DNA of 64,000 bases, from the NCBI GenBank assembly GCA_964529415.1, contig CAZGWD010000013.1, positions 29,466-93,465 on the forward strand, read 5' to 3'. The DNA is from an uncultured Leptospirales bacterium (GTDB taxonomy: Bacteria > Spirochaetota > UBA4802 > UBA5550). This document shows positions 36,811-53,550 of this stretch, one piece after another; position 1 is the stretch's first letter; each line of letters opens with the position of its first letter. Position numbers and translations under genes: made by a program. A model generated the notes under the pieces. It saw only the letters and a list, made by a program, of their open reading frames with translations. It was not told the origin of the DNA and made no database searches.

Positions 36811-37155
36811 ATGAAAAGAGATAAACGCAGCAAAAGGGACGAAGGAGTTGTCTCCTGGCCTGGATTTTATGGTGATGATTCTTTTATAAATAGAGAAAAG
36901 AACAGGGCAAGAGAACTCAGGCAGTCTGCATGGTGGAAGAAGAAAATTTCATATGGATTATGCTACTACTGCGGCGGAAAATTTTTACCCTCGGAACTTA
37001 CCATGGATCATAAAATTCCGCTATCTAAAGGCGGAAATTCCGATAAAGAGAATATCGTTTGTGCGTGTAAAGAGTGTAATAATAAGAAGAAATATATGCT
37101 TCCTGTAGAATGGGATGAATATATGAATAAGATAAAGGGTGATGTAAATGGCTGA
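36811..37155 (+). CDS. HNH endonuclease
   Basis: CYYCGG...LTMDHKIPLSKGG...ENIVCACKECNNKK, the HNH Zn-finger/His-Asn-His core, in a 114-aa protein. Confidence 0.75.
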   Translation: MKRDKRSKRDEGVVSWPGFYGDDSFINREKNRARELRQSAWWKKKISYGLCYYCGGKFLPSELTMDHKIPLSKGGNSDKENIVCACKECNNKKKYMLPVEWDEYMNKIKGDVNG

Positions 37156-41308: not shown

Positions 41309-41680
41309 ATGAAATTCCTGATTATTGACGATTCAATGGTTATACGTTCTATACATAAAAATGTGCTGAAAGACAACAACATCAATGATGCTGATATTTT
41401 TGAAGCTGAAAACGGTAATACTGCAATTGAAATCGCCCAGAAGGAGGATATAGGACTCTTCCTTGTTGACTGGAACATGCCTGGGCTAAACGGCCTGGAA
41501 TTCGTTAAAAGAGTAAGATCATGGCCGAAATATGCAGAAACTCCAATCATAATGGTCACATCAGAGGCAGCCAAGTATAATGTCATGGAAGCCATAGATG
41601 CAGGTGCCACCAACTACATTGTCAAGCCGATTCACGGCGATTTGCTGTGGAGTAAAATATCCAGATATGTTGTATCATAA
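41309..41680 (+). CDS. cheY: CheY-like single-domain response regulator
   Basis: MKFLIIDDS...LFLVDWNMPGLNGLEF...YIVKPI with all receiver hallmarks in 123 aa. Confidence 0.85.
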   Translation: MKFLIIDDSMVIRSIHKNVLKDNNINDADIFEAENGNTAIEIAQKEDIGLFLVDWNMPGLNGLEFVKRVRSWPKYAETPIIMVTSEAAKYNVMEAIDAGATNYIVKPIHGDLLWSKISRYVVS

Positions 41681-41695
41681 CCTGAGGAGCAGACT

Positions 41696-42154
41696 ATGAA
41701 AGCTGAATATATAAACCCTTTTCTTGAAGCATCAATAAATCTTTTCAGAGAGCATTTAAAGTTTGATATTAAAAATACTACCCCGTATATCAACCAGGAT
41801 TCACAGAATCTTAATGAGGTATCTGCCATAATAGGCCTTGCCGGCGATATAGCCGGTGCTGTTGTTCTCAGCTTTACGCGTGAAACCGCGATCGCAATGG
41901 CATCCCGTTTCAGCGGCCAGACGTATCATGCTCTGAGCAAGGAGGTTATTGATGCAGTTGGTGAGCTTGTGAACATCATTGCAGGCAATGCAAAGAAAGA
42001 CCTGCTTGGATTCCGTATTGAAATATCCCTTCCCGGAGTTATCACAGGAAATACATATAAAATCAACTGGCCTCATGGAGTACCGGTTATTACAATTCCA
42101 TTTGAGTCGGATGCCGGAATTTTTTCAGTTAACGTTTCATTTAAGCAGCGATGA
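41696..42154 (+). CDS. cheX: CheX/CheC-family chemotaxis phosphatase-like protein
   Basis: INPFLEASINLFREHL N-terminus and GDIAGAVVLSF...ELVNIIAGNAK, typical of CheX. It starts 16 nt after cheY. Confidence 0.7.
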   Translation: MKAEYINPFLEASINLFREHLKFDIKNTTPYINQDSQNLNEVSAIIGLAGDIAGAVVLSFTRETAIAMASRFSGQTYHALSKEVIDAVGELVNIIAGNAKKDLLGFRIEISLPGVITGNTYKINWPHGVPVITIPFESDAGIFSVNVSFKQR

Positions 42155-44196
42155 GCACCCGAAGTCAGCTCCCGAGACTCAAGTTCATTCATGTTGCAAA
42201 GGGATTTCCCCGCGACCTTGAAAAAGATTATTATGAGGATTTTTTCCGTACATCCCTGCTGATCGTCCGTGTAGCTCTTATCCTCGGCATTGCCCTTTAT
42301 TCTCTTTTCGGCATTCTCGATATCTGGGTTGTTCCCCTGAATAAAAAAGCAGTATGGATTATCAGGTATGCGGTGGTATGTCCTATGCTGGGTGCAGCAT
42401 TGCTTCTGACCTATTTCGATATTTTTAAAAAGTACATGCAGGTCACTCTGTCTGCAGTCGGTTTTTTATCCGGATTCGGTATTGTGCTCATGATCGGATT
42501 TACTGCAGAAACGGAGCTCGGTTTTAAATTTTATTATGCAGGTCTGATGCTTGTTCTCATGTGGATATACGCACTTGTACGGCTCAGGTTTATTTATGCC
42601 ACGCTAATAAGCTGGGCAATTACTGTTTCCTATGAAATTGTAGCACTCGGTATTAATAAACTCCTCAGCACTCCTGATAATGTCACGGTCTTTATCAACA
42701 ATAACTTTTTTTTCATATCAGCCAACATAATAGGCATGTTTGCAAGCTTTACTATTGAATGGTATATGAGGAAGAATTATCTTCTGAGAATGGAAATCGA
42801 GAGATCGTATAATCTCAATAGAAAATATCTTGAAAACATCAGAGAAGGTCTTCTTCTCATAGATGACAGCTACACTATTCTTAATCAGTATTCTTCTTAT
42901 CTTCCCGTAATGTTCAGCAAAAATGAAATTGAGGGAATGAACTTTATTGATCTGGTAATGCCGGACCCGGAAAACATGAAACAGGAGAGAGCTGATCTCG
43001 AAAGATTTTTAAATTTTCTTTTTCATAATAAATCTGCAGATATTGACATGATCATGGATCTTAATCCGTTTGTAAACAGGCAGATCTATGTCAGTAACGG
43101 ATCCGTTGTAAAAGAACTTATCATCAATGCAGATTTTATCCGGATTCAGGATAGGGGCAGTGTAGAATTCGTCATGGCAATATTCCAGGACATGACTGAT
43201 ATAATGAAATTTGAAAAGCAGCTGGATGATCAGAAATCAAAACACCTGCAGGAAGTCGAAACAGTCACTGCAATACTCAGGTCCGGGCCGAAACTGTTCA
43301 GCGATTTTCTTAAAGAATCAGGAGAGATTCTTGATGATATCAGATCAAAAAGCAGCGACCTCGGCAGTTCAGAAACGCTTAATCATGTTTTCAGAGAGGC
43401 GCATTCACTAAAAGGTTCGGCAAAACATCTGGAGCTGAATCATATTTCTTCTACAGCGCATGCAATTGAAGATTTAATGGCGGAAATAAGAGACAGCTCC
43501 GGTTCCAACATAGCAGGGAAAAAATCTGAAATTGACAGGCTTATATCAGATCTCTTTAAAAACTTTGATGAACTAGGAACACTCATTGAAAAAATTTCCA
43601 TGTTCTCTAATCTCGGAAAAAGCAGAGCTGCTGAAAGTACGGAAAATCCGCTTAACGATTTTATTACATCCCTATATACGATGGTAAATAATCTTGCAAA
43701 AGAACTTGATAAAGATGTTCATCTGGTTATTGACAACAAGCTTACGGATGTTCCGTTTCTTGCTAAATTAAAAAATCCTATTATACATCTTATCCGGAAT
43801 TCTCTGGATCACGGGATTGAAGATAAATTTGAGAGACTGACATCAGGAAAAAATCAGACAGGAATAGTTTCAATATCTTTAAATGAAGATGCAGAGAAAT
43901 ATTATATTGAAATTTCTGATGACGGAGCAGGAATTGATTTTGATGCTGTGCGGAAGAAGGCTGAATTATTAGGCTTGCTGCCTTCCGGAGAAAAACCTGA
44001 AAAATCAGCACTTGTGAAGCTTTTATTCACTCCGAGTTTCAGTTCAAAAAACAAGGTAACTGAAATTTCAGGAAGGGGATACGGCCTGGATATTGTCAAG
44101 GTTGCAGTTGAAAGCCTTGGCGGGCAGATATCTGTTAAATCTGCCAGGGGTAAAGGTTCCAGGCTGATTATTTCTGTACCGAAAAATAATAGTTGA
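42151..44196 (+). CDS. membrane-bound CheA-like histidine kinase (6-TM sensor + Hpt + CheA-type HATPase; no CheW/P5 domain)
   Basis: Six N-terminal TM helices. The Hpt motif is FREAHSLKGSAKHLE. The CheA-P4-like ATPase has IHLIRNSLDHGIE, ISDDGAGID and GRGYGLDIV. The protein ends right after the ATPase. It overlaps the cheX stop (ATGA). Confidence 0.7.
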   Translation: MSTRSQLPRLKFIHVAKGFPRDLEKDYYEDFFRTSLLIVRVALILGIALYSLFGILDIWVVPLNKKAVWIIRYAVVCPMLGAALLLTYFDIFKKYMQVTLSAVGFLSGFGIVLMIGFTAETELGFKFYYAGLMLVLMWIYALVRLRFIYATLISWAITVSYEIVALGINKLLSTPDNVTVFINNNFFFISANIIGMFASFTIEWYMRKNYLLRMEIERSYNLNRKYLENIREGLLLIDDSYTILNQYSSYLPVMFSKNEIEGMNFIDLVMPDPENMKQERADLERFLNFLFHNKSADIDMIMDLNPFVNRQIYVSNGSVVKELIINADFIRIQDRGSVEFVMAIFQDMTDIMKFEKQLDDQKSKHLQEVETVTAILRSGPKLFSDFLKESGEILDDIRSKSSDLGSSETLNHVFREAHSLKGSAKHLELNHISSTAHAIEDLMAEIRDSSGSNIAGKKSEIDRLISDLFKNFDELGTLIEKISMFSNLGKSRAAESTENPLNDFITSLYTMVNNLAKELDKDVHLVIDNKLTDVPFLAKLKNPIIHLIRNSLDHGIEDKFERLTSGKNQTGIVSISLNEDAEKYYIEISDDGAGIDFDAVRKKAELLGLLPSGEKPEKSALVKLLFTPSFSSKNKVTEISGRGYGLDIVKVAVESLGGQISVKSARGKGSRLIISVPKNNS

Positions 44197-44221
44197 TAAA
44201 ACTATAAAAGGCAGTGAGTGC

Positions 44222-45664
44222 ATGACTATAAATGAAGAAAAAATTACAAGTCAGATAATGAAAAATTCGATCAGGTTTTCAGGTGAACTTGAAACGCTTT
44301 TTCATGAGGATTATTTTCTTAAATCTCTCGGCTCTGTAAGAAAGGCTCTTCTGCTTGCTTTTATTCTCTACGCATCTTTTGGTTTTCTCGATCTGATGAT
44401 TACGCCGCTTAGCAGCAGTCACACCTGGATTATCCGTTATGCAATTGTATGTCCTGTAATACTTGCTGCATATATAATGACTTATTTTGAAATATATGCC
44501 AGAATATCCCAGTATGTAATAAGCGCAGTTGCTCTAACTGCAGGATTCGGTATTCTCGGAATGATTTTTTTCGCTGTAGAAAAAGAAGGCAAACTGTATT
44601 ACTACGCAGGCCTGATCCTCGTAATAATGTGGAGCTATACGCTTGTCCGCATGAGATTCAGATATTCCACAATCACAAGCTGGACCATAGTTGCAGGTTA
44701 CGAATTGATGACTGTAGTTCTGCAGAATCTTGTTTCAACGCCGGATCTATACCCGAGTTTTATTAACAATAATTTCTTTTTTATTTCATCAAATATTATT
44801 GGAATGATGGCAGGTTATTACATTGAACTTTTCAGCAGAAAGGATTTTCTACAGCGCCTCCTGATTGCTGAAAAGCAGATAAAACTGACAGATGAAAGAA
44901 ACGAACTGAGTTCAAGAATGAATATGATGAACAAAGAACTTAATATGACCAGGATAATTCAGGAGCAGCTTATTCCGCTTGAACATCCGGGGGATTTTAT
45001 ATTTTCACTGTATAAGCCGATGGAGGCAGTTGGAGGAGATTTTTTCGATTTTATAAAATTCAGGGAACCTGACATAATTGGAATTTTCCTGAGCGATGTT
45101 TCAGGACATGGCGTACCTTCTGCTCTCATTACATCTATGGTGAAGGTTACTCTTCTTGAATCCAACAGATACAAGGATGATCCTGCAAAAATTCTGGCGC
45201 ATCTTAATGATCTTCTGGTGGGAATAAGCGGAGGGCATTTTATAACAGCATTTTACGGAGTTTTCGATATGAAGGAAAAAACTCTGGTTTATTCAAATGC
45301 AGGCCATTATCCGCCAATGCTGATTAGCGGAGGTGAGATATTGAATCTTGATAAGGCGTCAACTCTTCCCCTGGCAGTTTTATCCAATGATGAATTAACA
45401 AGCGGCAGTCAGATGTTTGAAAATGCCAGAGTAAAACTTCCGGATCAAGGGAAACTCTTTCTGTTTACAGACGGGCTTGTTGAGGCGAAAAATATTTTTA
45501 ATCCCCAGAATGATTTTTCGAGCATTCTTGACGGGATTTTACTTAAAAATATAGATCTTCCGGCAAAAGAGTTCATCAACGAGCTGTATAAAGAGCTAAT
45601 TTTATATAGAGGCTCTGAAAATTTTAATGATGATATCTGCATGATTGCTCTTGATCTGAACTGA
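44222..45664 (+). CDS. SiaA-like membrane PP2C (SpoIIE-type) phosphatase with the shared 6-TM sensor domain
   Basis: The N-terminal TM domain is paralogous to 42151 (IIRYAIVCP, YYAGLILVIMWSYTLVRMRF, FINNNFFFISSNIIGM). The C-terminal PP2C has LSDVSGHGVPSALIT and LFTDGLVEA. Confidence 0.7.
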   Translation: MTINEEKITSQIMKNSIRFSGELETLFHEDYFLKSLGSVRKALLLAFILYASFGFLDLMITPLSSSHTWIIRYAIVCPVILAAYIMTYFEIYARISQYVISAVALTAGFGILGMIFFAVEKEGKLYYYAGLILVIMWSYTLVRMRFRYSTITSWTIVAGYELMTVVLQNLVSTPDLYPSFINNNFFFISSNIIGMMAGYYIELFSRKDFLQRLLIAEKQIKLTDERNELSSRMNMMNKELNMTRIIQEQLIPLEHPGDFIFSLYKPMEAVGGDFFDFIKFREPDIIGIFLSDVSGHGVPSALITSMVKVTLLESNRYKDDPAKILAHLNDLLVGISGGHFITAFYGVFDMKEKTLVYSNAGHYPPMLISGGEILNLDKASTLPLAVLSNDELTSGSQMFENARVKLPDQGKLFLFTDGLVEAKNIFNPQNDFSSILDGILLKNIDLPAKEFINELYKELILYRGSENFNDDICMIALDLN

Positions 45665-45790
45665 CATCTGCCCCCGGGAAACAGGATTAAAATTCAATTT
45701 TTAACCAATTTACCCATGCAAAAATGAAATATGATTGAAATTTAATCCCCGATTAATTATATTATACAAGTTGCATCAGATATTTATTCG

Positions 45791-46288
45791 ATGGAGTCAT
45801 TCATGTCTGTAAAATTACAGAAACATATTACCTCGCATTGGGATGAAATTGAACAGGCCAGGGAAGACACACGGATTTTCATGAAATCGAATGACTATAC
45901 AGAAGATATTACTGATGCAATTATTATGGTAATCAGCGAACTTCTTGAAAATGCCGTCAAGTATGGTGTATTTACCTCATCTAATGAAGGCATAGATTAT
46001 TCAATTGAAGTGCACAAAGAAGCTATAATAGTAGAAGTGATTAACCCCTATGATACAGTTGCCCTGAATAATTTCAAGAGAATGGATAAAATAATACAAT
46101 GGATCCGCGGTTATCAGAATCCATTTCAGGCCTATATTGAAAAGCTGAAAGAAATTTCAGGAAGATCGCTTGAAGACAGGGAGAGCGGACTTGGGCTGGT
46201 GCGGATAGCATATCAGGGCCGGTCAATTGTTGATTTTTATCTAAGAAATGACAACAGGATATCCGTATCTGCAGTTTATCAGATATGA
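45791..46288 (+). CDS. SiaB/RsbW-like GHKL serine-protein kinase
   Basis: N-box ISELLENAVKYG and G-box ESGLGLVRIA. The ~165-aa size is typical of anti-sigma-type kinases. Confidence 0.55.
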   Translation: MESFMSVKLQKHITSHWDEIEQAREDTRIFMKSNDYTEDITDAIIMVISELLENAVKYGVFTSSNEGIDYSIEVHKEAIIVEVINPYDTVALNNFKRMDKIIQWIRGYQNPFQAYIEKLKEISGRSLEDRESGLGLVRIAYQGRSIVDFYLRNDNRISVSAVYQI

Positions 46289-46309
46289 TTTTAGTTAAAG
46301 GATTATAAT

Positions 46310-46669
46310 ATGAAAACCCATGCCAGCGATCTGCTGAAAATTGAAATTGACGAAAGCAAAGACAGCATTTTGATAAAATGGCTTGGAAAAAGTACGGCAC
46401 GCGATCCCGGGGATTTTATTATTCCAATACTCACTGATGAACTTAAAAAAGCCGGAGGTGATATCCACGTAATACTTGATTTCTGTGATCTTGAATACAT
46501 GAATTCATCTACAATGACTCCTATATCAAAAATTCTCGAGAATGCCAGATCCGGAAAATCCCGTGTATCAATTCATTACAGTAAATCGGTAAACTGGCAG
46601 GAGCTGAATTTTTCAGCTTTGAAAATATTTGAAACCAAAGACAAACGCATTGAGATATCCGGTAGATAA
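46310..46669 (+). CDS. SiaC-like (DUF1987-like) partner-switch target protein
   Basis: 119-aa protein. ILDFCDLEYMNSSTMTPISKILE resembles the SiaC phospho-site region as I recall it (…LDLRLLYLNTSSIKAMMDILD…). Gene order matches siaA-siaB-siaC. Confidence 0.5.
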   Translation: MKTHASDLLKIEIDESKDSILIKWLGKSTARDPGDFIIPILTDELKKAGGDIHVILDFCDLEYMNSSTMTPISKILENARSGKSRVSIHYSKSVNWQELNFSALKIFETKDKRIEISGR

Positions 46670-46671
46670 AA

Positions 46672-48060
46672 ATGACAGCAAAAGAAATATATGATGGCGT
46701 TTTACTCACTGATAACGGAAATATACAGGTTAAAATAAAATATATATCCAGAGTGACCGTTTCTGTGGATTTTCCTGATGACAAAAAGTTTCTGCACGGT
46801 GATGAATTCAATGGACTCATACTTTCATTAGGAATCGATTTTCATGAATTCGGTAGATGCAGGTACATTGTATCAGAGGGAAAAGGAAAATCATCCGGCA
46901 GGCTTGTTTTTCTAAATGATATTTATGATTTCAACTGCCTTTTTTTTGAAAAAAAAATTGTTTCACTCGACAGTTTTCATAATAATCTGGCGCTTATTTT
47001 TTCACAGAGGGATAATCTCAATGAGTCATTTGTAAAATATGTTGCTGACCTTACCTTTGATCTGAAAGTTTACCGTCATTTTTTTAACGATATCGATGCA
47101 AAATATTTTAATGAGGATGAAAATACAAAATCCATTCTTTTCAATGTGGTTCTTGAAAAGGAAGGCAGGAAATTCCTTGATTTTCTTGATGAAAAACTTA
47201 AGGATCTGGAACGTGTAATTGCAGATTTCACCAGAGAGGATCACAGGCTTCACGGATTTTATCTGAGGAAGCAACTGTGGGATGTTATCGAGTGTTCTGA
47301 ATTCATGCTGCACTGCAATCTAAGACCAAGAGGATACGCCGGCGACTCGGAATTGATGAGGATGATATATGAAAATGATTACAGGGGCGATTCAACATTC
47401 TCTAAAATTTTTTATAAGTATTCGCTGGATCATCCCGGAGCAGTAGCTGTCAGAAACAGAAAAATACTGATACCTGAATATCTCAAATCAGTGGCAGGCA
47501 GCAGCAATTTTAAAGGCGGGATCTGTAAATTCATGTCAGTTGCTTGCGGCCCTGCGTATGAGCTGACAGATATTTTTATCAATTCAGATGATATAAAAAA
47601 ATATAATTGCACGCTGCTTGATCAGGACTCTGAAGCGCTTAAAGAAGCTGAAGATAATATCAGAAATATTGAAAAGAAACTCGGAAGTACAATACAAGTC
47701 AAGTATCTTGAGGATTCTGTCCGTACCATGCTTAGAACTCCGGACCTGTCAGCGCAATGGGGGCGTTTTAATTTTATATATTCCATGGGGCTTTTTGACT
47801 ATCTTGCTCCTACTGTTGCAAAAGCTGTAATAGAAAAAATTTATGATCTTCTCGAGCCGGGCGGGCAGCTTCTCATCGGAAATTATCATCTCCTGAATAA
47901 AAGCAAGTGGTTCATGGAATACTGGCATGACTGGGTGCTTTATTACCGCTCGGAGGATGAATTCAAAGCGATTTTGAAAGATACCAATGCAGTTGATATC
48001 GCTATACGCATAGACGACTCGGGCAGCCAGATGTTTTTAAGTGCGAAAAAACCGGAATGA
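46672..48060 (+). CDS. protein with C-terminal class I SAM-dependent methyltransferase-like domain (N-terminal ~270 aa unknown)
   Basis: Motif I FMSVACGPAYELTDIF, the acidic motif II LLDQD, IYSMGLFDYL, and the LLEPGGQLLIGNY motif. It starts 2 nt after the SiaC-like gene. Confidence 0.5.
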   Translation: MTAKEIYDGVLLTDNGNIQVKIKYISRVTVSVDFPDDKKFLHGDEFNGLILSLGIDFHEFGRCRYIVSEGKGKSSGRLVFLNDIYDFNCLFFEKKIVSLDSFHNNLALIFSQRDNLNESFVKYVADLTFDLKVYRHFFNDIDAKYFNEDENTKSILFNVVLEKEGRKFLDFLDEKLKDLERVIADFTREDHRLHGFYLRKQLWDVIECSEFMLHCNLRPRGYAGDSELMRMIYENDYRGDSTFSKIFYKYSLDHPGAVAVRNRKILIPEYLKSVAGSSNFKGGICKFMSVACGPAYELTDIFINSDDIKKYNCTLLDQDSEALKEAEDNIRNIEKKLGSTIQVKYLEDSVRTMLRTPDLSAQWGRFNFIYSMGLFDYLAPTVAKAVIEKIYDLLEPGGQLLIGNYHLLNKSKWFMEYWHDWVLYYRSEDEFKAILKDTNAVDIAIRIDDSGSQMFLSAKKPE

Positions 48061-48097
48061 ATTACCTGACAGGACATTTAAAACGGCAGGCGGAATA

Positions 48098-49450
48098 ATG
48101 GCTGATAGCAGCAATATCGATCCGGAAAAAAAATTTTATAACAGCAATGATTTTAATGAATACCTTATAGGGATTATTCATGACTGGTCAAAAACTCTGA
48201 CTACTCTTGCCTATACGCTTGTTCCTCTTTTTTTTATACTCGATTATTTTACTATGCCCCGGGAGCTGCTTCCCCGCTTCGCGTTCTACCGGGTTATTGC
48301 AACCATTATTGCGCTGATCCAGTATATTGTAGTTAAAAATACAAAACCCAGTAAAATTTCATACGTTCACGGTTATCTTGTTTCATTGATTCTCGGCGGT
48401 GTAATTGCACTAATGACTGTTGATCTCGGAGGATTCAGTTCCGGCTATTATGCTGGACTAAATCTTGTTATAATAGGTGTGAATATTCTTCTTCCATGGG
48501 AGACTTACCATTCCGCCATCAACGGACTCATGACTATACTGATGTATGTTGTTCTTAATGTGGTTTTTGGCGGGAATTTTAATGCAAATGATTTAACCAG
48601 CAATCTTTTTTTTATGAACGCGACTGTTATAATCTCTGTAAGCATTAATCTTGTACGCAGCAAGCTCATAAAAAGAGAGTTCGCTCTGCGCTCGGAAGTT
48701 CAGAATGCAAGGGACGCCCTGTGGGGAGAAATGGAAGTAGCGAAAAAAATTCAGACATCGCTGCTTCCTAAAAATAAACGAATCGGCAGTTATGAAATGG
48801 CGGCACTTATGGAACCCGCAGCAGAAATTGGTGGCGATTACTACGATGCTGTTGAAACAAATGCAGGTGAAAACTGGGTTATGATAGGAGATGTTTCAGG
48901 TCATGGAGTTGAGTCAGGGCTTATTATGATGATGACACAAACGAGTATATTTTCAATTATCAATGACACCCCGGGACAACGTCCAATGAATGTAATTAAT
49001 AATGTTAATTCTGTTATCCGGAAAAATATTTCCAGACTTGGTTCAAACATGTATATGACCCTCTTTGCTATTAGACTTGAAAATGATTCTGTGATGCTGG
49101 CAGGAAAACATCAGGATATAATAATTTACAGGGCAAAGTCCGGAACAGTTGATGTAATACAGGTTCAGGGTACCTGGATCGGTCTTGCGGATGATATTGC
49201 TCCTTTTCTGAGTGATATAAAAATTGAAATTTTCGAAAACGATATCATGCTTCTTTTTACTGATGGAGTTACAGAAGCCATGAACGATAGTGGAGAAATG
49301 TTTAATCAGGACCGTCTCATTGCTTTATTTAAAATATATTCATCTTTATCTCCTGAAAATATTGTCAGGAATATTGCTGAAGACATAGGTAAATTCCAGA
49401 AAAAACAGTATGATGACATAACACTTATAGCACTGAAAAAAAACTATTAA
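48098..49450 (+). CDS. membrane PP2C (SpoIIE-type) phosphatase, divergent paralog
   Basis: The ORF is listed from 48041, overlapping the previous gene by 20 nt. The ATG at 48098 (MADSSNID) is preferred. There are six TM helices (YYAGLNLVII) and a PP2C with IGDVSGHGVESGLIM and LFTDGVTEA. Confidence 0.65.
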   Translation: MADSSNIDPEKKFYNSNDFNEYLIGIIHDWSKTLTTLAYTLVPLFFILDYFTMPRELLPRFAFYRVIATIIALIQYIVVKNTKPSKISYVHGYLVSLILGGVIALMTVDLGGFSSGYYAGLNLVIIGVNILLPWETYHSAINGLMTILMYVVLNVVFGGNFNANDLTSNLFFMNATVIISVSINLVRSKLIKREFALRSEVQNARDALWGEMEVAKKIQTSLLPKNKRIGSYEMAALMEPAAEIGGDYYDAVETNAGENWVMIGDVSGHGVESGLIMMMTQTSIFSIINDTPGQRPMNVINNVNSVIRKNISRLGSNMYMTLFAIRLENDSVMLAGKHQDIIIYRAKSGTVDVIQVQGTWIGLADDIAPFLSDIKIEIFENDIMLLFTDGVTEAMNDSGEMFNQDRLIALFKIYSSLSPENIVRNIAEDIGKFQKKQYDDITLIALKKNY

Positions 49451-49595
49451 ACCATATTAAAAAATTTTCTTAACAAGCATACAGCATTTTGAAAACAAAG
49501 TTTATTTTATTGTCTGTAAAACAAGTAAGATTCTTGACATATTTTCATGATATGGATAATATAAATAAAATTAAACGGTTATTACAGGAGTTCCA

Positions 49596-49988
49596 GTGAG
49601 TATTGAAGTTGAAATTATAAAAGTTACAGCTGTTTCGATTGATATAATAGATTATAATATACTGATCTTCAAAATCAATCCGGAAAAAAGAATTAATTCG
49701 GATAACTCCAATGAACTTTGGATAATTCTAAATACTCTTATTGACGCCGGAGTTAAGAAGATTCTTGTTGATTTAAAGTTAGTGGAATATATTGACAGTT
49801 CCGGTATCGGCATTTTTATTAATGCGACAAAAAAAGTACGGAAGAAACAGGGGGATCTGGTTCTTGCCAATACATCCAAGGAAATAAAGGAAATTTTTAA
49901 AGTAATCAACCTCCAGAATTTCATTAAAATATATAATACAGATACGGAAGCATCTAATTATTTCAGGCTCTCTTTCCCTTCTGAATAA
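49596..49988 (+). CDS. STAS-domain anti-sigma-factor antagonist (SpoIIAA/RsbV-like)
   Basis: ILVDLKLVEYIDSSGIGIFINATKKVRKKQGDLVLANTSKEIKEIFKVINL is a canonical STAS with the conserved phosphorylatable Ser in DSSG. Confidence 0.75.
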   Translation: MSIEVEIIKVTAVSIDIIDYNILIFKINPEKRINSDNSNELWIILNTLIDAGVKKILVDLKLVEYIDSSGIGIFINATKKVRKKQGDLVLANTSKEIKEIFKVINLQNFIKIYNTDTEASNYFRLSFPSE

Positions 49989-49991
49989 GCC

Positions 49992-51821
49992 TCATTGTTG
50001 AAATTTATTTTTTTCTTTTAAATCATTTATTGTACAGTATTCCCTGATTATTCTGATAAATATACTGCCGTAGCGTTCATATTTATTTAAGCCCACACCG
50101 TATATATTCATCATTGAAGATTTTTGCTGAGGGAAATATACTGTCATTTCAATAAGGGTTCTATCGGAGAAAATAATATATGGCGGAATATTTTCCTCAT
50201 CAGCAAGTTCCTTTCTTTTTTTTCTCAGTATGTTAAACAATTCTGTATCGTGATCCTGTTCTATCCTTTTCTGTGATTTATCTGTTTTTTTAATATCATC
50301 CATTACAGGAGCCTGAATTTTTTCTGTTCCTTTCATAATGCTGAATCCGCGCTGAGTGATTTTTAATATTCCGAAGTTGTCCGCGTCCTGTATTAGCGCG
50401 CCTTCTCTTATGAACTGCCTTGCGAGGTGCAGCCAGTATTTTTTTGAATAATCTTTTGCTATGCCCCACGTTGGAAGTTTGTGATGCCCGAAGTCAATAA
50501 TCTTCTTGGATTCCGAACCTCTCAGTATGTCTATTACATGGTTCATTCCGAATCTTTCATCAGTTCTCCTGACACATGATAGAAACATCTGCGCCTTGAC
50601 TGAAACATCTTCCATAGGAACGGCACTGCCGGTGCAGTTGTCGCACGCTCCGCAGTTTTTTACACTGTAATCCTCGCCGAAATATTTTATAAGAGGAATG
50701 CGCCTGCAGGAGGTTGATTCAGCATAATCGATAAGACTTGCAAGATGATGGTTCGCTATTTTCTTTTCGTTGTCATTTTCTTTCTGATCAATGAAATATT
50801 TAATTTTGCGAATGTCGGAGTAGCTGTAGAGTAAAAGGCAGTTTGCCGGAAGCCCGTCGCGTCCGGCTCTTCCTGTTTCCTGATAATAAGATTCTATGCT
50901 CTTCGGCAGATCATGATGAATAACGAATCTTACATTCGTTTTATGTATTCCCATGCCGAATGCAATTGTTGCAACGACAATCTGCACTTCATCCCTGATG
51001 AATAATTCCTGGTTGCGTTTTCTCTGTTCGTCTGAGAGTCCAGCGTGATATGGCCTGACTGAATAACCGTGTTCCAGAAGCTTTTCAGAAAGAGTATCCA
51101 CCTGGTTTCTCGAAAAACAATAGATAATGCCGGACTGGGATGGAAATTTGTTTAAAAATTCAAGTGTCTGCTGCATGGAATTCTGTTTGGGAATAACCTG
51201 AAAAAAAAGATTCTCCCTGTTGAAGCTTGCAATATAACTGTTCGAATCTTTCATTTCAAGATTTTTCAGTATGTCGTTTCTTACGCGCTCTGTCGCAGTT
51301 GCAGTAAGAGCAACGCAGACTGCTGAAGGGATTTTTTTTCTGAATTTCACAATCTGCCTGTATTCCGGACGGAAGTCGTGACCCCATTCAGAAATGCAGT
51401 GAGCCTCATCTATTGCAATGCAGTCAACCTGCAATGAAAAAAGCATCCCGGATATGTCCGGTTTAACCAGTGTTTCAGGCGCAACATATAAAAGCTTAAT
51501 TCTGCTATTTCGGACAAGGTTTTTGTTTTCATGATATTCCTCAAGATCAAGAGAACTGTTAAGCATTACTGCCGGAATATTGAGAATCCTCAGCTGGTCT
51601 ATCTGGTCTTTCATGAGAGATATAAGCGGTGAAACTACAATTGTCAGCCCTTTGAACAGCATTGCCGGAATCTGGTAGCAGACAGATTTTCCGCCCCCTG
51701 TTGGCATTAAAACCAGTGTATCTTTTTTATCAAGAACAGATTTAATTATTTCTTCCTGGAGAGATTTGAATTCATCATATCCGAAAGTTTCTTTTAATAT
51801 TTTATTAGCCTGGTTTATCAT
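49992..51821 (-). CDS. recQ: ATP-dependent DNA helicase RecQ
   Basis: FGYDEFKSLQEEII, Walker A LMPTGGGKS, DEAH (AIDEAHCISEWGHDFRPEY), and Zn-binding, winged-helix and HRDC regions. Confidence 0.95.
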   Translation of the reverse strand: MINQANKILKETFGYDEFKSLQEEIIKSVLDKKDTLVLMPTGGGKSVCYQIPAMLFKGLTIVVSPLISLMKDQIDQLRILNIPAVMLNSSLDLEEYHENKNLVRNSRIKLLYVAPETLVKPDISGMLFSLQVDCIAIDEAHCISEWGHDFRPEYRQIVKFRKKIPSAVCVALTATATERVRNDILKNLEMKDSNSYIASFNRENLFFQVIPKQNSMQQTLEFLNKFPSQSGIIYCFSRNQVDTLSEKLLEHGYSVRPYHAGLSDEQRKRNQELFIRDEVQIVVATIAFGMGIHKTNVRFVIHHDLPKSIESYYQETGRAGRDGLPANCLLLYSYSDIRKIKYFIDQKENDNEKKIANHHLASLIDYAESTSCRRIPLIKYFGEDYSVKNCGACDNCTGSAVPMEDVSVKAQMFLSCVRRTDERFGMNHVIDILRGSESKKIIDFGHHKLPTWGIAKDYSKKYWLHLARQFIREGALIQDADNFGILKITQRGFSIMKGTEKIQAPVMDDIKKTDKSQKRIEQDHDTELFNILRKKRKELADEENIPPYIIFSDRTLIEMTVYFPQQKSSMMNIYGVGLNKYERYGSIFIRIIREYCTINDLKEKNKFQQ

Positions 51822-52107
51822 ATTATCTATTTAGATTTTTTTAATTCACTTTATTATTAATACGAATATAAATCAATTTTTGTAAATTATTCTTATAAAA
51901 AAAATAATGAATGAATAATGCAAACCAAATTTTATTAGCCTGGTTTGATCAGTTCATTGTTATTTCGGCTGTAGCCTCTGCATGCATTTGTGATAAACTT
52001 CACAAAATTTCAGAATCTCACAGATATTGTATAATTATTATAGTCTTTTTTAATTATATATTAAAATTAAACTTGATTATTTTAAAAGAAGAAGTAATTA
52101 TAATAAA

Positions 52108-53550
52108 ATGAAAACAGAATATTTAATATCCAAATCCGGATCCAAATTTTCTATGAAATTTTCCAGGGAACTTGAATCTGATTTTGAGAACTTTTATTTT
52201 GAAAAATCAATCCTGACAACAAGAATAGCACTTATACTTGGAGCAGTTTTATATTCGCTTTTTGCGTTTCTTGATATCTTGATTGCTCCAATTGAAATTC
52301 ATAAAATCTGGATTATTCGTTTTCTGATAGTGGTTCCGCTGCTTGTTCTTTTATTCGCAGCAAGTTTTTTTAATGCTTTCAGGAAATATATGCAGTCATT
52401 GACAGCTTTGGTTTCAATGGCTGCAGGACTCGGGATTCTGGCAATAATATCAATAGCTTCTGAAGCGGAAGGCAAGTTCTATTATTATGCAGGTTTGATT
52501 CTTGTTATAATGTGGACCTACACCCTGGTCCGCCTCCGCTTTATTTATGCAACAGCAGTATGCTGGATTCTTGTTATTATTTATGAATTGATCAATTTAT
52601 TTTATTTTCAGGTGTTTGAAACAGGCGATACGCGCAAGATTTTTTTTAACAATAACTTTTTTTTTATTTCATCAAATATTATAGGCATGTTTGCAGGATA
52701 TTTACTGGAACTATATACAAGAAATGATTTCCTGTATAAAATTAAACTTTCTGAAAAGCAGAAAGAACTGCAGAAAGACCGCGATGAGTTGAAAGCCAAC
52801 AATGAGCGTTTCCAGAGCGATCTGGAAATGGCAAGATCGCTTCAGGAATATCTTCTGCCAATGAAAAGCCCTTATCCTTTCATAAATTTTCTTTATAAAC
52901 CCATGGAAGAGGTAGGCGGGGATTTATACGATTTTATTGCATTTAATGACGGTGAAAGAATCGGGTTATTCATCAGCGATGTTTCCGGCCATGGGGTGCC
53001 TTCTGCATTTATCACTGCAATGATTATTACCGCAATTCACGACCTGGACGAAATAAAACATAATCCTGCTGAATTTCTTCTCAGGCTCAATGATGCTCTT
53101 CATAATCTGATAGAGGAACATTATGCCACTGCTTTTTACGGAATATATAACCTGAAAGAAAAGAATCTTGTATATTCAAATGCCGGACATCCACCGCCTA
53201 TACTTTTTTCAAATGGAGTAATTAAATTGATCGAAGGCGGAAAGAGCAAACCACTTGGAATTTTTGATTCGGATACGCTGAAAAAAATGAATTCTCATTA
53301 TAACAACGCTGAAATAAAATTTCAGTCAGGTGACAGAATACTCATTTATACAGACGGTATTATTGATGCAAAAAATGTAGTCACCCGGGAAAGGTATTCC
53401 AGTATATTAGCAGATAGAATTATTGATTTTTCAGGTCTTTCTTCTAATGAGTTTCTTCAGATCTTATTCAATGATATTATTTCATTCAGCGGAAATAATA
53501 AACTTGATGATGATATATGCATGATGTGTCTTGATGTAGAGAAAGAATAA
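52108..53550 (+). CDS. SiaA-like membrane PP2C phosphatase with the shared 6-TM sensor domain (third paralog)
   Basis: The N-terminal TM domain matches 42151 and 44222 (YYYAGLILVIMWTYTLVRLRFIYAT, FFNNNFFFISSNIIGMFAGY). The PP2C has ISDVSGHGVPSAFIT and IYTDGIIDA. Confidence 0.7.
   Translation: MKTEYLISKSGSKFSMKFSRELESDFENFYFEKSILTTRIALILGAVLYSLFAFLDILIAPIEIHKIWIIRFLIVVPLLVLLFAASFFNAFRKYMQSLTALVSMAAGLGILAIISIASEAEGKFYYYAGLILVIMWTYTLVRLRFIYATAVCWILVIIYELINLFYFQVFETGDTRKIFFNNNFFFISSNIIGMFAGYLLELYTRNDFLYKIKLSEKQKELQKDRDELKANNERFQSDLEMARSLQEYLLPMKSPYPFINFLYKPMEEVGGDLYDFIAFNDGERIGLFISDVSGHGVPSAFITAMIITAIHDLDEIKHNPAEFLLRLNDALHNLIEEHYATAFYGIYNLKEKNLVYSNAGHPPPILFSNGVIKLIEGGKSKPLGIFDSDTLKKMNSHYNNAEIKFQSGDRILIYTDGIIDAKNVVTRERYSSILADRIIDFSGLSSNEFLQILFNDIISFSGNNKLDDDICMMCLDVEKE

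What the first reader, a model, noticed from the sequence alone, without database searches (positions are those of the whole stretch)
42151..53550. One distinctive 6-TM sensor domain fused to opposing outputs: a CheA-like kinase and multiple PP2C phosphatases
The N-terminal ~210 aa of the ORFs at 42151, 44222 and 52108 are clear paralogs. They share blocks IIRYA(V/I)VCP, YYAGL(M/I)LV(L/I)MW.Y(A/T)LVR(L/M)RF and F(I/F)NNNFFFIS(A/S)NIIGM. The ORF at 48098 is more divergent. The C-terminal domains are either Hpt+CheA-type ATPase or PP2C phosphatase. So one membrane input module appears to drive both a His-Asp phosphorelay (CheY/CheX adjacent) and Ser/Thr partner-switching phosphatases. I cannot assign the TM domain to a named family.
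Basis: seen in the sequence. Interest (0 to 1): 0.7.

Follow-up and report, generated by a model that had tools for sequence, protein, structure and literature searches.

The report
MASE8 membrane sensors with a PhcB-like synthase
Four neighbouring genes share a known six-helix membrane sensor domain (MASE8, also found in the Ralstonia quorum-sensing receptor PhcS and related to the membrane domain of animal adenylyl cyclases), fused to a CheA-like kinase or to PP2C phosphatases, and among them lies a homologue of the enzyme that makes PhcS's fatty-acid methyl-ester signal, which suggests what these sensors detect.

Summary
ORFs at 42151, 44222 and 52108 share a ~200-aa six-helix N-terminal domain (44-50% identity, tblastn E 1e-41 to 1e-62). 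The ORF at 48098 is a divergent member (hhalign 95.7%, E 1e-8).

The domain is already named: Pfam PF20968, MASE8. Orthologues 90-96% identical in a syntenic MAG contig carry it. MASE8 is a large, promiscuous sensor family (at least 1,390 50%-identity clusters at E<=1e-30), mostly fused to HisKA kinases, also to GGDEF, HD-GYP, cyclases and PP2C. Varied outputs are therefore what the family is defined by.

New here:
- MASE8 is the sensor domain of PhcS, the Ralstonia receptor for 3-hydroxy fatty-acid methyl esters. It matches ImcA (8WCN) and mammalian adenylyl-cyclase membrane domains in sequence and fold.
- The 462-aa ORF at 46672 is a PhcB-family methyltransferase, the Phc signal synthase family.
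- RsbW-like, STAS-like, PhcB-like and divergent MASE8-PP2C genes, usually followed by a canonical MASE8 protein, form a cassette conserved in dozens of metagenome contigs.
- The MASE8-PAS-Hpt-CheA-P4 kinase, always found with CheY and CheX, is a rare fusion.

Best reading: a Phc-like lipophilic methyl-ester signalling system with partner-switch and CheY outputs. The two output types act in parallel, not in opposition.

The parts
41309..41680 (+). CheY-like single-domain response regulator, the presumed phosphoacceptor of kinase A
   Evidence: Pfam Response_reg E 6.6e-26. The DD, DWNMP, T and K motifs are visible in the translation. It is conserved directly upstream of CheX and the A-type kinase in L001, L002, L040 and L122.
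41696..42154 (+). CheX-type CheY-P phosphatase
   Evidence: Pfam CheX E 1.2e-25. It is 80-98% identical and syntenic in L001, L002, L040 and L122. Its stop overlaps the start of A.
42151..44196 (+). Protein A: MASE8 6TM sensor (aa 1-~217), PAS-like region (~220-370), Hpt (382-455) and CheA-type P4 ATPase (~507-679). No P2, P3 or P5/CheW domain was detected.
   Evidence: Pfam Hpt and HATPase_c. P4 matches T. maritima CheA P4 at E 3e-36, with N, G1, F and G2 boxes aligned; chains that contain P3 align only from P4 onward. PAS_9 is weak, E 0.017. The 92%-identical orthologue is annotated MASE8+Hpt+HATPase_c.
42205..42801 (+). MASE8 domain of A, the stretch that was modelled and used as query
   Evidence: AF2 pLDDT 96.4 with six helices. 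Foldseek top hits are ImcA 8WCN (TMq 0.82) and AC9/AC8 membrane domains. The family profile hits 8WCN at E 3.7e-9, AC8 at 2.4e-6 and AC5 at 1e-5.
44222..45664 (+). Protein B: MASE8 + PP2C (SpoIIE-type) phosphatase
   Evidence: SpoIIE E 8e-37. The four metal-binding Asp motifs (GGDFFD, DVSGHG, TDG, DD) are visible in the translation. The orthologue is annotated MASE8+SpoIIE.
45791..46288 (+). slr1658-superfamily protein, a GHKL fold like RsbW/SpoIIAB (partner-switch 'kinase' position)
   Evidence: NCBIfam slr1658_superfam E 3.8e-13. Weak HATPase_c_2/_5 hits. The family profile hits anti-sigma F factor at E 0.04 and RsbW at 0.14. It is present in 65 of 80 metagenome loci that encode the methyltransferase.
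46310..46669 (+). slr1659-superfamily STAS-like protein (anti-sigma-antagonist position)
   Evidence: NCBIfam slr1659_superfam E 2.7e-7. The family profile hits the TM1442 antagonist at E 1.4e-6 and SpoIIAA at 0.009. An N-S-S-T motif is invariant or nearly so in the 21-sequence alignment; placing it at the STAS phospho-serine position is my reading by eye. It is present in 58 of 80 loci.
46672..48060 (+). PhcB-family SAM-dependent methyltransferase (462 aa): N-terminal beta-barrel, helical bundle and Rossmann methyltransferase domain. Candidate signal synthase.
   Evidence: 28% identity over 266 aa, E 2e-29, collinear with Ralstonia insidiosa PhcB (465 aa) of a phcBSRQ operon. E 8e-35 to the Paraburkholderia PhcB-like protein. 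JGI names many homologues with 44-58% identity 'EF 3-hydroxypalmitic acid methyl ester biosynthesis protein'. AF2 pLDDT 91; nearest folds are small-molecule and lipid methyltransferases.
48098..49450 (+). Protein C: divergent MASE8 + PP2C, the invariant phosphatase of the conserved cassette. The longest ORF starts at GTG 48041; ATG 48098 matches the gene call in the orthologous locus.
   Evidence: SpoIIE E 2e-33. hhalign against the family gives prob 95.7%, E 1e-8. The orthologue is annotated MASE8+SpoIIE. It occurs in 56 of 80 methyltransferase loci, directly downstream of the methyltransferase gene.
49596..49988 (+). Canonical STAS anti-sigma-factor antagonist, a likely PP2C substrate
   Evidence: Pfam STAS E 2e-16. 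A DSSG motif is visible in the translation. It is syntenic in L122.
52108..53550 (+). Protein D: MASE8 + PP2C phosphatase, separated from the rest by recQ on the minus strand
   Evidence: SpoIIE E 5e-43. Its N-terminal domain is 45-48% identical to those of A and B. The orthologue is annotated MASE8+SpoIIE.

Best explanation
The region is a signalling island of an uncultured Spirochaetota bacterium. It is built around MASE8 (Pfam PF20968), a six-helix, probably dimeric, membrane-embedded sensor domain.

Shown:
- Four paralogous MASE8 receptors are encoded within 11.4 kb.
- One carries PAS-like, Hpt and CheA-type P4 domains and follows CheY and CheX.
- Three carry PP2C phosphatase domains with intact metal-binding motifs and lie beside STAS-type and RsbW-like proteins.
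- MASE8 is also the sensor domain of PhcS, the Ralstonia receptor for 3-hydroxy fatty-acid methyl esters.
- MASE8 is homologous in sequence and fold to the 6TM domains of the diguanylate cyclase ImcA and of mammalian adenylyl cyclases.
- The ORF at 46672 belongs to the family of PhcB, the methyltransferase that makes the Phc signal.
- The gene order RsbW-like, STAS-like, PhcB-like, divergent MASE8-PP2C, canonical MASE8 protein recurs widely.

Inferred:
- The PhcB-like enzyme methylates a fatty-acid-like precursor to give a lipophilic methyl ester.
- This signal partitions into the membrane and is bound by the MASE8 domains.
- Ligand-dependent rearrangement of the MASE8 dimer passes down the long TM6 helix and its conserved E..Y.R.DF exit motif to the cytoplasmic outputs.
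- Branch 1: kinase A autophosphorylates its Hpt histidine and transfers the phosphate to CheY, and CheX resets CheY.
- Branch 2: the PP2C domains dephosphorylate STAS-type proteins and so switch their RsbW-like partner.
- Because the cassette holds no sigma factor, the switch may act on the methyltransferase itself, giving post-translational autoinduction.
For: Domain identity:
- Homologues and 90-96%-identical orthologues carry PF20968:MASE8.
- AF2 gives a six-helix model, pLDDT 96.4.

Link to PhcS:
- Every PhcS-named kinase retrieved carries PF20968+HisKA+HATPase_c, apart from two listed without the HisKA hit.
- The Ralstonia insidiosa phcBSRQ locus shows PhcS as MASE8-HisKA-HATPase.
- The window family profile against a PhcS profile gives hhalign prob 97.6%, E 2.8e-12 over 203 columns.

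Link to ImcA and adenylyl cyclases:
- hmmsearch: 8WCN E 3.7e-9, AC8 2.4e-6, AC5 1e-5.
- Foldseek: 8WCN TMq 0.82, AC9/AC8 0.52-0.77; all other hits are at most 0.37.

PhcB link:
- E 2e-29 and 8e-35 to PhcB proteins of phcBS operons, same length and collinear.
- JGI names of homologues.
- Small-molecule methyltransferase fold.

Methyltransferase-MASE8 linkage across phyla:
- 9 of 38 MASE8 genome loci have the methyltransferase within 8 kb, in Spirochaetota, Smithella, Bacteroidales and Deltaproteobacteria.
- A cyanobacterial plasmid has it next to a MASE8 kinase.
- Of 80 metagenome loci found with the methyltransferase, 56 have the C-type MASE8-PP2C and 36 a canonical MASE8 gene.
- In 23 of 36 evaluable loci the canonical MASE8 gene starts about 60 nt after the C-type gene. 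Its output varies (HisKA, HD-GYP, GGDEF-EAL, cyclase), so the conserved partner is the MASE8 domain itself.

Literature:
- PhcB makes 3-OH MAME/PAME and PhcS senses it (PMC7694676).
- AC-type 6TM domains respond to fatty acids and lipids (PMC11606603, PMC12505454).
- ImcA needs its 6TM domain for activity (PMC10904736).

Outputs:
- CheA P4 at E 3e-36; CheY, CheX, SpoIIE and STAS hits.
- STAS-like and RsbW-like profile hits.
Against: - No ligand is known for any MASE8 protein other than PhcS. Direct binding to PhcS's membrane domain is, to my knowledge, genetic inference rather than a structural result.
- The window's MASE8 proteins are only distantly related to PhcS. The NNNFFF block is absent from PhcS.
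- The methyltransferase is only 28-29% identical to PhcB, and its N-terminal ~190 aa show no detectable similarity. Its substrate could be different.
- Most MASE8 loci (29 of 38) have no such methyltransferase nearby.
- Orthologous CheY-CheX-A operons in L001 and L002 are not near the cassette.
- The RsbW-like protein lacks an obvious G1 ATP-binding box, so the kinase that would oppose the PP2Cs is not identified.
- No PhcR, PhcQ or PhcA homologues were found in the locus.
- The target of CheY-P is unknown.
Confidence: 0.6

Rival explanations
1. The MASE8 domains report a general property of the membrane, such as free fatty acids, lipid composition, fluidity or envelope stress, and not a dedicated self-made signal. 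The neighbouring methyltransferase has another role, for example methylating a lipid or a protein of the cassette, as CheR does in adaptation.
For: AC-type 6TM domains respond to common fatty acids and glycerophospholipids (PMC11606603, PMC12505454). Most MASE8 loci lack the methyltransferase. The family is very large and varied. Weak CheR SAM-domain and CFA-synthase similarities exist.
Against: The closest characterised relative of the methyltransferase by a wide margin is PhcB (E 2e-29 against 0.015-0.07 for CFA synthase and CheR). Its fold neighbours are small-molecule methyltransferases. Tight operonic linkage between the methyltransferase and MASE8 recurs in six phyla and includes the experimentally established PhcB/PhcS pair.
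Confidence: 0.25
2. The MASE8 domain is only a membrane anchor, dimerisation scaffold or docking surface for partner membrane proteins. The real inputs are cytoplasmic (the PAS-like region of A, protein partners).
For: For ImcA, the membrane region is needed for binding the partner IsmP and for activity, and no intramembrane ligand was shown (PMC10904736). Kinase A has an additional PAS-like region.
Against: Polar and aromatic residues are strongly conserved inside the helices across phyla (D in LD, R in IR, YYAG, NNN), which a passive anchor would not need. B, C and D have no other sensory domain. PhcS, a MASE8-HisKA kinase with no other sensor, detects a lipophilic signal (PMC7694676).
Confidence: 0.1
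3. One reading: a previously unnamed sensor family that drives antagonistic kinase and phosphatase outputs on one pathway.
For: The shared N-terminal domain and the two classes of output are real.
Against: The domain is Pfam MASE8. A CheA-type His kinase and PP2C Ser/Thr phosphatases do not share substrates (established biochemistry of the two families).
Confidence: 0.03

Closest known systems
MASE8 (Pfam PF20968), a membrane-associated sensor domain of bacterial signalling proteins
   Same: Six-helix N-terminal integral-membrane domain followed by cytoplasmic output domains. Orthologues of all four window proteins carry the Pfam hit. The family motifs are conserved.
   Different: The fusion to PAS-like, Hpt and CheA-P4 domains is rare: 1 cluster among the top 143 representatives, and 2 of 37 genome loci. 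Four copies lie within about 11 kb. Protein C belongs to a divergent subfamily that always occurs with PP2C in the cassette.
Phc quorum-sensing system of Ralstonia and Cupriavidus (phcBSRQ: PhcB methyltransferase, PhcS sensor kinase)
   Same: A PhcB-family methyltransferase is encoded next to MASE8 receptors. PhcS's sensor domain is MASE8.
   Different: The outputs are PP2C/partner-switch and CheA-like/CheY, not HisKA to PhcR/PhcQ to PhcA. RsbW-like and STAS-like genes are inserted. There are several receptors. The host phylum is different. The signal chemistry is unknown.
ImcA (PA1851) of P. aeruginosa, PDB 8WCN, and the membrane domains of class III adenylyl cyclases (AC5, AC8, AC9)
   Same: Same 6TM fold (TMq 0.82 to ImcA; 0.52-0.77 to AC9/AC8). 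Significant profile matches include the juxtamembrane E..R..F helix. A dimeric arrangement is expected by analogy.
   Different: The catalytic outputs differ (GGDEF, cyclase). Sequence identity is only 12-18%.
CheA/CheY/CheX chemotaxis phosphorelay (for example in Borrelia and Thermotoga)
   Same: A CheA-type P1 (Hpt, AHSLKGSA motif) and P4 domain, a CheY with DWNMP, and a CheX phosphatase.
   Different: No P2, P3 or P5 domain, and no CheW, MCP, CheR or CheB in the operon. The kinase carries its own membrane sensor.
RsbU/RsbV/RsbW and SpoIIE/SpoIIAA/SpoIIAB partner switching; SiaABCD of P. aeruginosa
   Same: A membrane-anchored PP2C, a STAS-type protein and a GHKL anti-sigma-like protein are encoded together. 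As in Sia, an enzyme gene and not a sigma factor sits in the cassette.
   Different: The GHKL protein is of the slr1658 type and has no obvious G1 box. The associated enzyme is a methyltransferase. The phosphatase's input domain is MASE8.

Membership tests
MASE8 (PF20968) | Significant match to the Pfam model | tested here: met
   The local Pfam copy lacks the model, so there is no hit. Precomputed hits exist on orthologues of A, B, C and D that are 93-96% identical in the domain, and on most homologues with 35-71% identity.
MASE8 (PF20968) | N-terminal integral-membrane domain of six helices | tested here: met
   The AF2 model has six helices, pLDDT 96.4. The domain is N-terminal in all four proteins.
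MASE8 (PF20968) | Association with diverse signalling output domains | tested here: met
   HisKA/HATPase, REC, SpoIIE, GGDEF, EAL, HD-GYP, Guanylate_cyc and Hpt outputs were found.
Phc-type quorum sensing | PhcB-family SAM methyltransferase (signal synthase) | tested here: met
   E 2e-29 to Ralstonia insidiosa PhcB and 8e-35 to the Paraburkholderia PhcB-like protein, same length and collinear. Catalytic activity and product are not testable here.
Phc-type quorum sensing | PhcS-type receptor (MASE8 + HisKA + HATPase_c) | tested here: not met
   The sensor domain is shared. None of the four window proteins has HisKA; their outputs are Hpt/P4 or PP2C.
Phc-type quorum sensing | PhcR/PhcQ response regulators and the PhcA LysR regulator | tested here: not met
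   No REC-HisKA-HATPase (PhcR-like) or 340-aa REC protein lies in 41-54 kb; only a 123-aa CheY. The rest of the genome is not available.
Phc-type quorum sensing | Signal is a 3-hydroxy fatty-acid methyl ester | not testable with these tools
   This needs chemistry.
CheA histidine kinase | P1 Hpt domain with the phospho-His motif | tested here: met
   Pfam Hpt E 4.5e-13. AHSLKGSA is visible in the sequence.
CheA histidine kinase | P4 catalytic domain of CheA type | tested here: met
   E 3e-36 to T. maritima CheA P4, with N, G1, F and G2 boxes aligned.
CheA histidine kinase | P3 dimerisation domain and P5 CheW-like domain | tested here: not met
   No H-kinase_dim or CheW hit. PDB chains containing P3 or P5 align only over P4. 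The protein ends right after P4.
Partner-switching module (RsbU/V/W type) | PP2C phosphatase with metal-binding aspartates | tested here: met
   SpoIIE E 1e-33 to 1e-43. The GGD..D, DVSGHG, TDG and DD motifs are seen in B, C and D.
Partner-switching module (RsbU/V/W type) | STAS antagonist with a phosphorylatable Ser | tested here: met
   The STAS protein at 49596 hits at E 2e-16 and has DSSG. The slr1659-like profile hits TM1442 at E 1.4e-6, and the NSST motif is invariant or nearly so. Phosphorylation itself was not tested.
Partner-switching module (RsbU/V/W type) | GHKL serine kinase / anti-sigma factor | tested here: inconclusive
   The slr1658-like profile matches SpoIIAB and RsbW only at E 0.04-0.14. 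An N box and a G2-like box are present, but no clear DxGxG G1 box.
Partner-switching module (RsbU/V/W type) | Target sigma factor | tested here: not met
   None is encoded between 41 and 54 kb or in the conserved cassette.

The most novel reading that the evidence does not exclude
A widespread, undescribed relative of Phc quorum sensing exists in Spirochaetota and other sediment bacteria. In it a PhcB-like enzyme makes a lipophilic methyl ester that is read by several MASE8 receptors. A divergent MASE8-PP2C and a canonical MASE8 protein, encoded side by side, form a heterodimeric 12-helix receptor comparable to TM1/TM2 of animal adenylyl cyclases. An RsbW-like/STAS-like switch feeds back on the synthase after translation. 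This would give a natural ligand class, and a tractable bacterial model, for the adenylyl-cyclase-type membrane domain.
Probability: 0.3. Interest if true: 0.8.

Novelty: new variant of a known kind. Interest (0 to 1): 0.55.

Why it matters
The context gives it more weight.

1. It ties three separately studied objects to one homologous 6TM domain: PhcS (a receptor for fatty-acid methyl esters), ImcA, and the membrane halves of animal adenylyl cyclases. What the cyclase membrane domains sense is still an open question (PMC12414865). I found no paper in the held library that links PhcS with MASE8 or with the cyclases.

2. It points to a conserved five-gene cassette that couples a candidate signal synthase to MASE8 receptors through a partner switch. 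That is a testable candidate for a new family of lipid-like cell-cell or autocrine signalling outside the Betaproteobacteria.

3. It shows a minimal CheA (P1+P4) wired directly to a membrane sensor and to CheY and CheX, with no chemoreceptor array.

Tried and rejected
- Local Pfam and NCBIfam scans of the N-terminal domains gave nothing, or only a sub-threshold AC_N hit. This turned out to be a gap in the library and not evidence of novelty.
- Literature searches for PF20968 and MASE6-8 found only one passing mention. The paper that defines MASE8 could not be read.
- Exact look-up of protein A in the assembly index found nothing. The source genome is not among the GTDB representatives; the best match is 69% identical.
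- The idea that the methyltransferase is a CheR-like protein methyltransferase was considered and set aside. CheR and CFA-synthase similarities are marginal (E 0.003-0.07), against E 2e-29 to PhcB.
- No family was found for the methyltransferase's N-terminal beta-barrel and helical region.
- Single-sequence PDB searches with the slr1658-like and slr1659-like proteins found nothing. Only the family profiles gave STAS and weak SpoIIAB/RsbW hits.
- The literature on slr1658 and slr1659 was uninformative.
- Promoter and terminator scans are uninformative in this AT-rich DNA.
- The EAL protein next to the Rhizobium methyltransferase matches MASE8 only weakly (prob 20%) and is not counted.
- The AFDB fold library was unavailable.

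Full report
**1. The observation**

The region holds a run of plus-strand genes:
- CheY, 41309-41680
- CheX, 41696-42154
- A, 42151-44196 (681 aa)
- B, 44222-45664 (480 aa)
- a 165-aa ORF, 45791-46288
- a 119-aa ORF, 46310-46669
- a 462-aa ORF, 46672-48060
- C, from ATG 48098 to 49450 (the longest ORF starts at GTG 48041)
- a STAS protein, 49596-49988
- recQ on the minus strand
- D, 52108-53550 (480 aa)

Pfam finds Hpt and HATPase_c in A, and SpoIIE/PP2C in B, C and D. The first ~215 residues of A, B and D are 44-50% identical, with tblastn E 1e-41 to 1e-62 inside the window. C is only marginal in pairwise comparison (E 0.01-0.1). It aligns to a 42-sequence family profile with hhalign probability 95.7%, E 1e-8 over 170 columns.

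**2. What the domain is**

Local Pfam and NCBIfam scans gave no family for the membrane domain. A profile search of 5.8 billion proteins found 96 relatives, most with a precomputed hit to PF20968. The local Pfam copy does not report PF20968 even for those proteins, so the blank was a library gap.

A contig from a close relative settles it: GCA_964392365.1, locus L122, syntenic, proteins 90-98% identical. It lists PF20968:MASE8 for the orthologues of A (with Hpt and HATPase_c) and of B, C and D (with SpoIIE). MASE1-8 are 'membrane-associated sensor' domains named by Galperin and colleagues (mentioned in bioRxiv 10.1101/2021.11.05.467447). I could not read the defining paper.

An AlphaFold2 model of A's domain, built on 61 sequences, has six helices, pLDDT 96.4 and pTM 0.90.

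The family is large. A profile search found 17,438 50%-identity clusters at E<=1e-3, 3,689 at E<=1e-10 and 1,390 at E<=1e-30.

Outputs found:
- 37 genome loci: HATPase_c 20, HisKA 17, REC 15, SpoIIE 8, GGDEF 5, cyclase 2, HD-GYP 2, Hpt 2.
- 76 representative clusters: HisKA 59, REC 37, PAS about 31, GGDEF 4, SpoIIE 2, HD-GYP 2.

Fusion of one sensor to many outputs is therefore the normal behaviour of this family.

By the record titles, hosts include Spirochaetota, Bacteroidales, Smithella/Desulfobacterota, cyanobacteria and Acidobacteria. The window's own genome is not among the GTDB representatives; the best hits are Spirochaetota MAGs at 69%.

**3. Relatives with known structure or function**

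The family profile hits three sets of solved structures:
- the P. aeruginosa diguanylate cyclase ImcA (8WCN), E 3.7e-9, residues 46-260
- bovine AC8, E 2.4e-6, both membrane halves
- AC5, E 1e-5

The matches run through TM6 into the juxtamembrane helix, where the motif E..R..F is shared. Foldseek with the model returns ImcA first (TMq 0.82, rmsd 2.9 A), then AC9 and AC8 membrane domains (TMq 0.52-0.77). Every other hit is at or below 0.37.

ImcA's 6TM domain forms a homodimer and is required for activity and for binding its partner IsmP (PMC10904736). Mammalian and mycobacterial cyclase 6TM domains have been reported to act as receptors for fatty acids and lipids (PMC11606603, PMC12505454).

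**4. The overlooked gene and the link to PhcS**

The 462-aa ORF at 46672 looked like a weak class I methyltransferase. A homologue of its C-terminal ~270 residues lies next to MASE8 genes in 9 of the 38 genome loci, in several phyla and often in the same operon.

A search with the whole protein found 1,327 relatives. JGI names many of them 'extracellular factor (EF) 3-hydroxypalmitic acid methyl ester biosynthesis protein', which is PhcB. PhcB is the Ralstonia methyltransferase that makes the quorum signal 3-OH PAME/MAME, and the kinase PhcS senses that signal (PMC7694676).

A Paraburkholderia plasmid (L120) carries methyltransferase (468 aa), kinase (445 aa), RR and RR genes in that order. 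Relatives of that kinase are named PhcS by NCBI and JGI. They include Cupriavidus 'repressor of PhcA' and a Ralstonia insidiosa protein. All carry PF20968, nearly all with both HisKA and HATPase_c.

The R. insidiosa chromosome (L123) shows the classical phcBSRQ layout, with PhcS annotated MASE8-HisKA-HATPase_c. The window methyltransferase aligns collinearly with that PhcB: 28% identity over 266 aa, E 2e-29, 462 against 465 aa. It aligns with the Paraburkholderia protein at E 8e-35. The window MASE8 profile aligns with a PhcS profile at hhalign 97.6%, E 2.8e-12 over 203 columns.

The AF2 model of the methyltransferase (pLDDT 91) has an N-terminal beta-barrel, a helical bundle and a Rossmann domain. 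Its nearest folds are small-molecule and lipid methyltransferases.

**5. A conserved cassette**

A metagenome scan with the methyltransferase returned 80 loci. Their content:
- 65 encode the slr1658-like protein
- 58 encode the slr1659-like protein
- 56 encode a C-type MASE8-PP2C
- 36 encode a canonical MASE8 protein

The order is fixed and on one strand: slr1658-like, slr1659-like, methyltransferase, C-type PP2C, canonical MASE8 gene. In 23 of 36 loci with enough sequence, the canonical gene starts about 60 nt after the C-type gene.

The output of the canonical gene varies: PAS-HisKA-HATPase with or without REC, HD-GYP, GGDEF-EAL or cyclase. What is conserved next to the cassette is therefore the MASE8 domain and not a particular output. 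In the window the canonical neighbours are B (upstream), A and D.

The slr1659-like family is STAS-like: its profile hits the TM1442 antagonist at E 1.4e-6 and SpoIIAA at 0.009. The slr1658-like family resembles SpoIIAB and RsbW only weakly (E 0.04-0.14) and lacks an obvious G1 box.

**6. The kinase branch**

A's catalytic domain is a CheA P4 (E 3e-36 to T. maritima CheA). Chains that include P3 or P5 align only over P4, and the protein ends after P4. Its Hpt domain has the AHSLKGSA motif. There is no P2, P3 or P5.

This architecture is rare. It occurs in one cluster (P0197) among the top 143 representatives and in two of the 37 genome loci (L001, L002). In the window, L001, L002, L040 and L122 it always follows CheY and CheX. 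In L040 that operon is divergently adjacent to the cassette. In L001 and L002 the cassette's methyltransferase lies elsewhere on the chromosome.

**7. Mechanism**

Shown:
- the domain identities
- the homologies to PhcS, ImcA and the adenylyl cyclases
- the PhcB-family membership of the methyltransferase
- the conserved gene order

Inferred:
- The methyltransferase makes a lipophilic methyl ester, and the MASE8 domains bind it in the membrane.
- The signal passes down TM6 to the outputs.
- A phosphorylates CheY, and CheX resets it.
- B, C and D dephosphorylate STAS-type proteins.
- With no sigma factor in the cassette, the switch may act on the methyltransferase, as SiaC acts on SiaD. This step is speculative.
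- The invariant polar residues (D of LD, R of IR, YY of YYAG, NNN) lie near the periplasmic ends of helices 1, 2, 4 and 6. I infer this from the model's helix boundaries and an N-in topology. They may form the binding site.

The kinase and the phosphatases act on different substrates, so they are parallel branches.

**8. Verdict**

The finding as written describes a member of a known domain family behaving as that family does. The value lies in two places:
- the PhcS/ImcA/adenylyl-cyclase connection
- the conserved cassette that combines a PhcB-like gene, MASE8 receptors and a partner switch

I did not find either described in the held literature.

Scores:
- Novelty: new variant of a known kind.
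- Interest: 0.55.
- Confidence in the domain assignment: about 0.97.
- Confidence in the self-made methyl-ester signal: about 0.5.

Noticed in passing
window 45791-49450; loci L039-L118, L003: A five-gene cassette recurs in dozens of metagenome contigs with fixed order and strand: slr1658-like GHKL, slr1659-like STAS, PhcB-like methyltransferase, divergent MASE8-PP2C, canonical MASE8 protein. It holds no sigma factor.
   Followed up: partly
window 45791-46288: The slr1658-like (RsbW/SpoIIAB-like) protein has an N box (ELLENAVKYG) and a G2-like GLGL, but no recognisable DxGxG G1 box. It may bind partners without acting as a kinase. If so, the kinase that opposes the three PP2Cs is unidentified.
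   Followed up: partly
window 46672-47240: The N-terminal ~190 aa of the methyltransferase (a beta-barrel of ~80 aa plus a long helical bundle in the AF2 model) match no Pfam family. They show no BLAST similarity to the equally long N-terminus of PhcB. This may be a regulatory or substrate-binding region.
   Followed up: partly
tool library (versus 10, 93): The local Pfam-A copy returns no PF20968 (MASE8) hit, even for proteins whose precomputed annotation lists it. A blank Pfam result for a membrane domain here is not evidence of novelty.
   Followed up: yes
L033 949-5538: A Bacteroidales contig encodes MASE8-HK, REC-HisKA_2-HATPase (the PhcR architecture), REC-LytTR and a short PhcB-like methyltransferase in one direction. 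It looks like a Phc-like operon outside the Proteobacteria.
   Followed up: partly
L007 2719-4119: A MASE8 protein of 466 aa lies on a contig binned as 'Candidatus Methanoperedens' (archaeal). This is either horizontal transfer or mis-binning.
   Followed up: no
L121 (Rhizobium etli p42e) and about 125 Rhizobium plasmids: A short PhcB-like methyltransferase is divergently adjacent to an EAL protein. That protein's N-terminal membrane region matches the MASE8 profile only weakly (hhalign 20%).
   Followed up: partly
L119 (Pseudanabaena sp. PCC 7367 plasmid pPSE7367.01) 5884-8503: A short PhcB-like methyltransferase lies convergent with a MASE8 histidine kinase (hhalign 99%, annotated 'HAMP domain-containing') and a response regulator. 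They sit beside a Tn3 transposase on a conjugative plasmid, so the pair may be mobile.
   Followed up: partly
window 37148-39607: An 819-aa ORF upstream of the aminotransferase has no Pfam hit on record in the orthologous locus L122.
   Followed up: no
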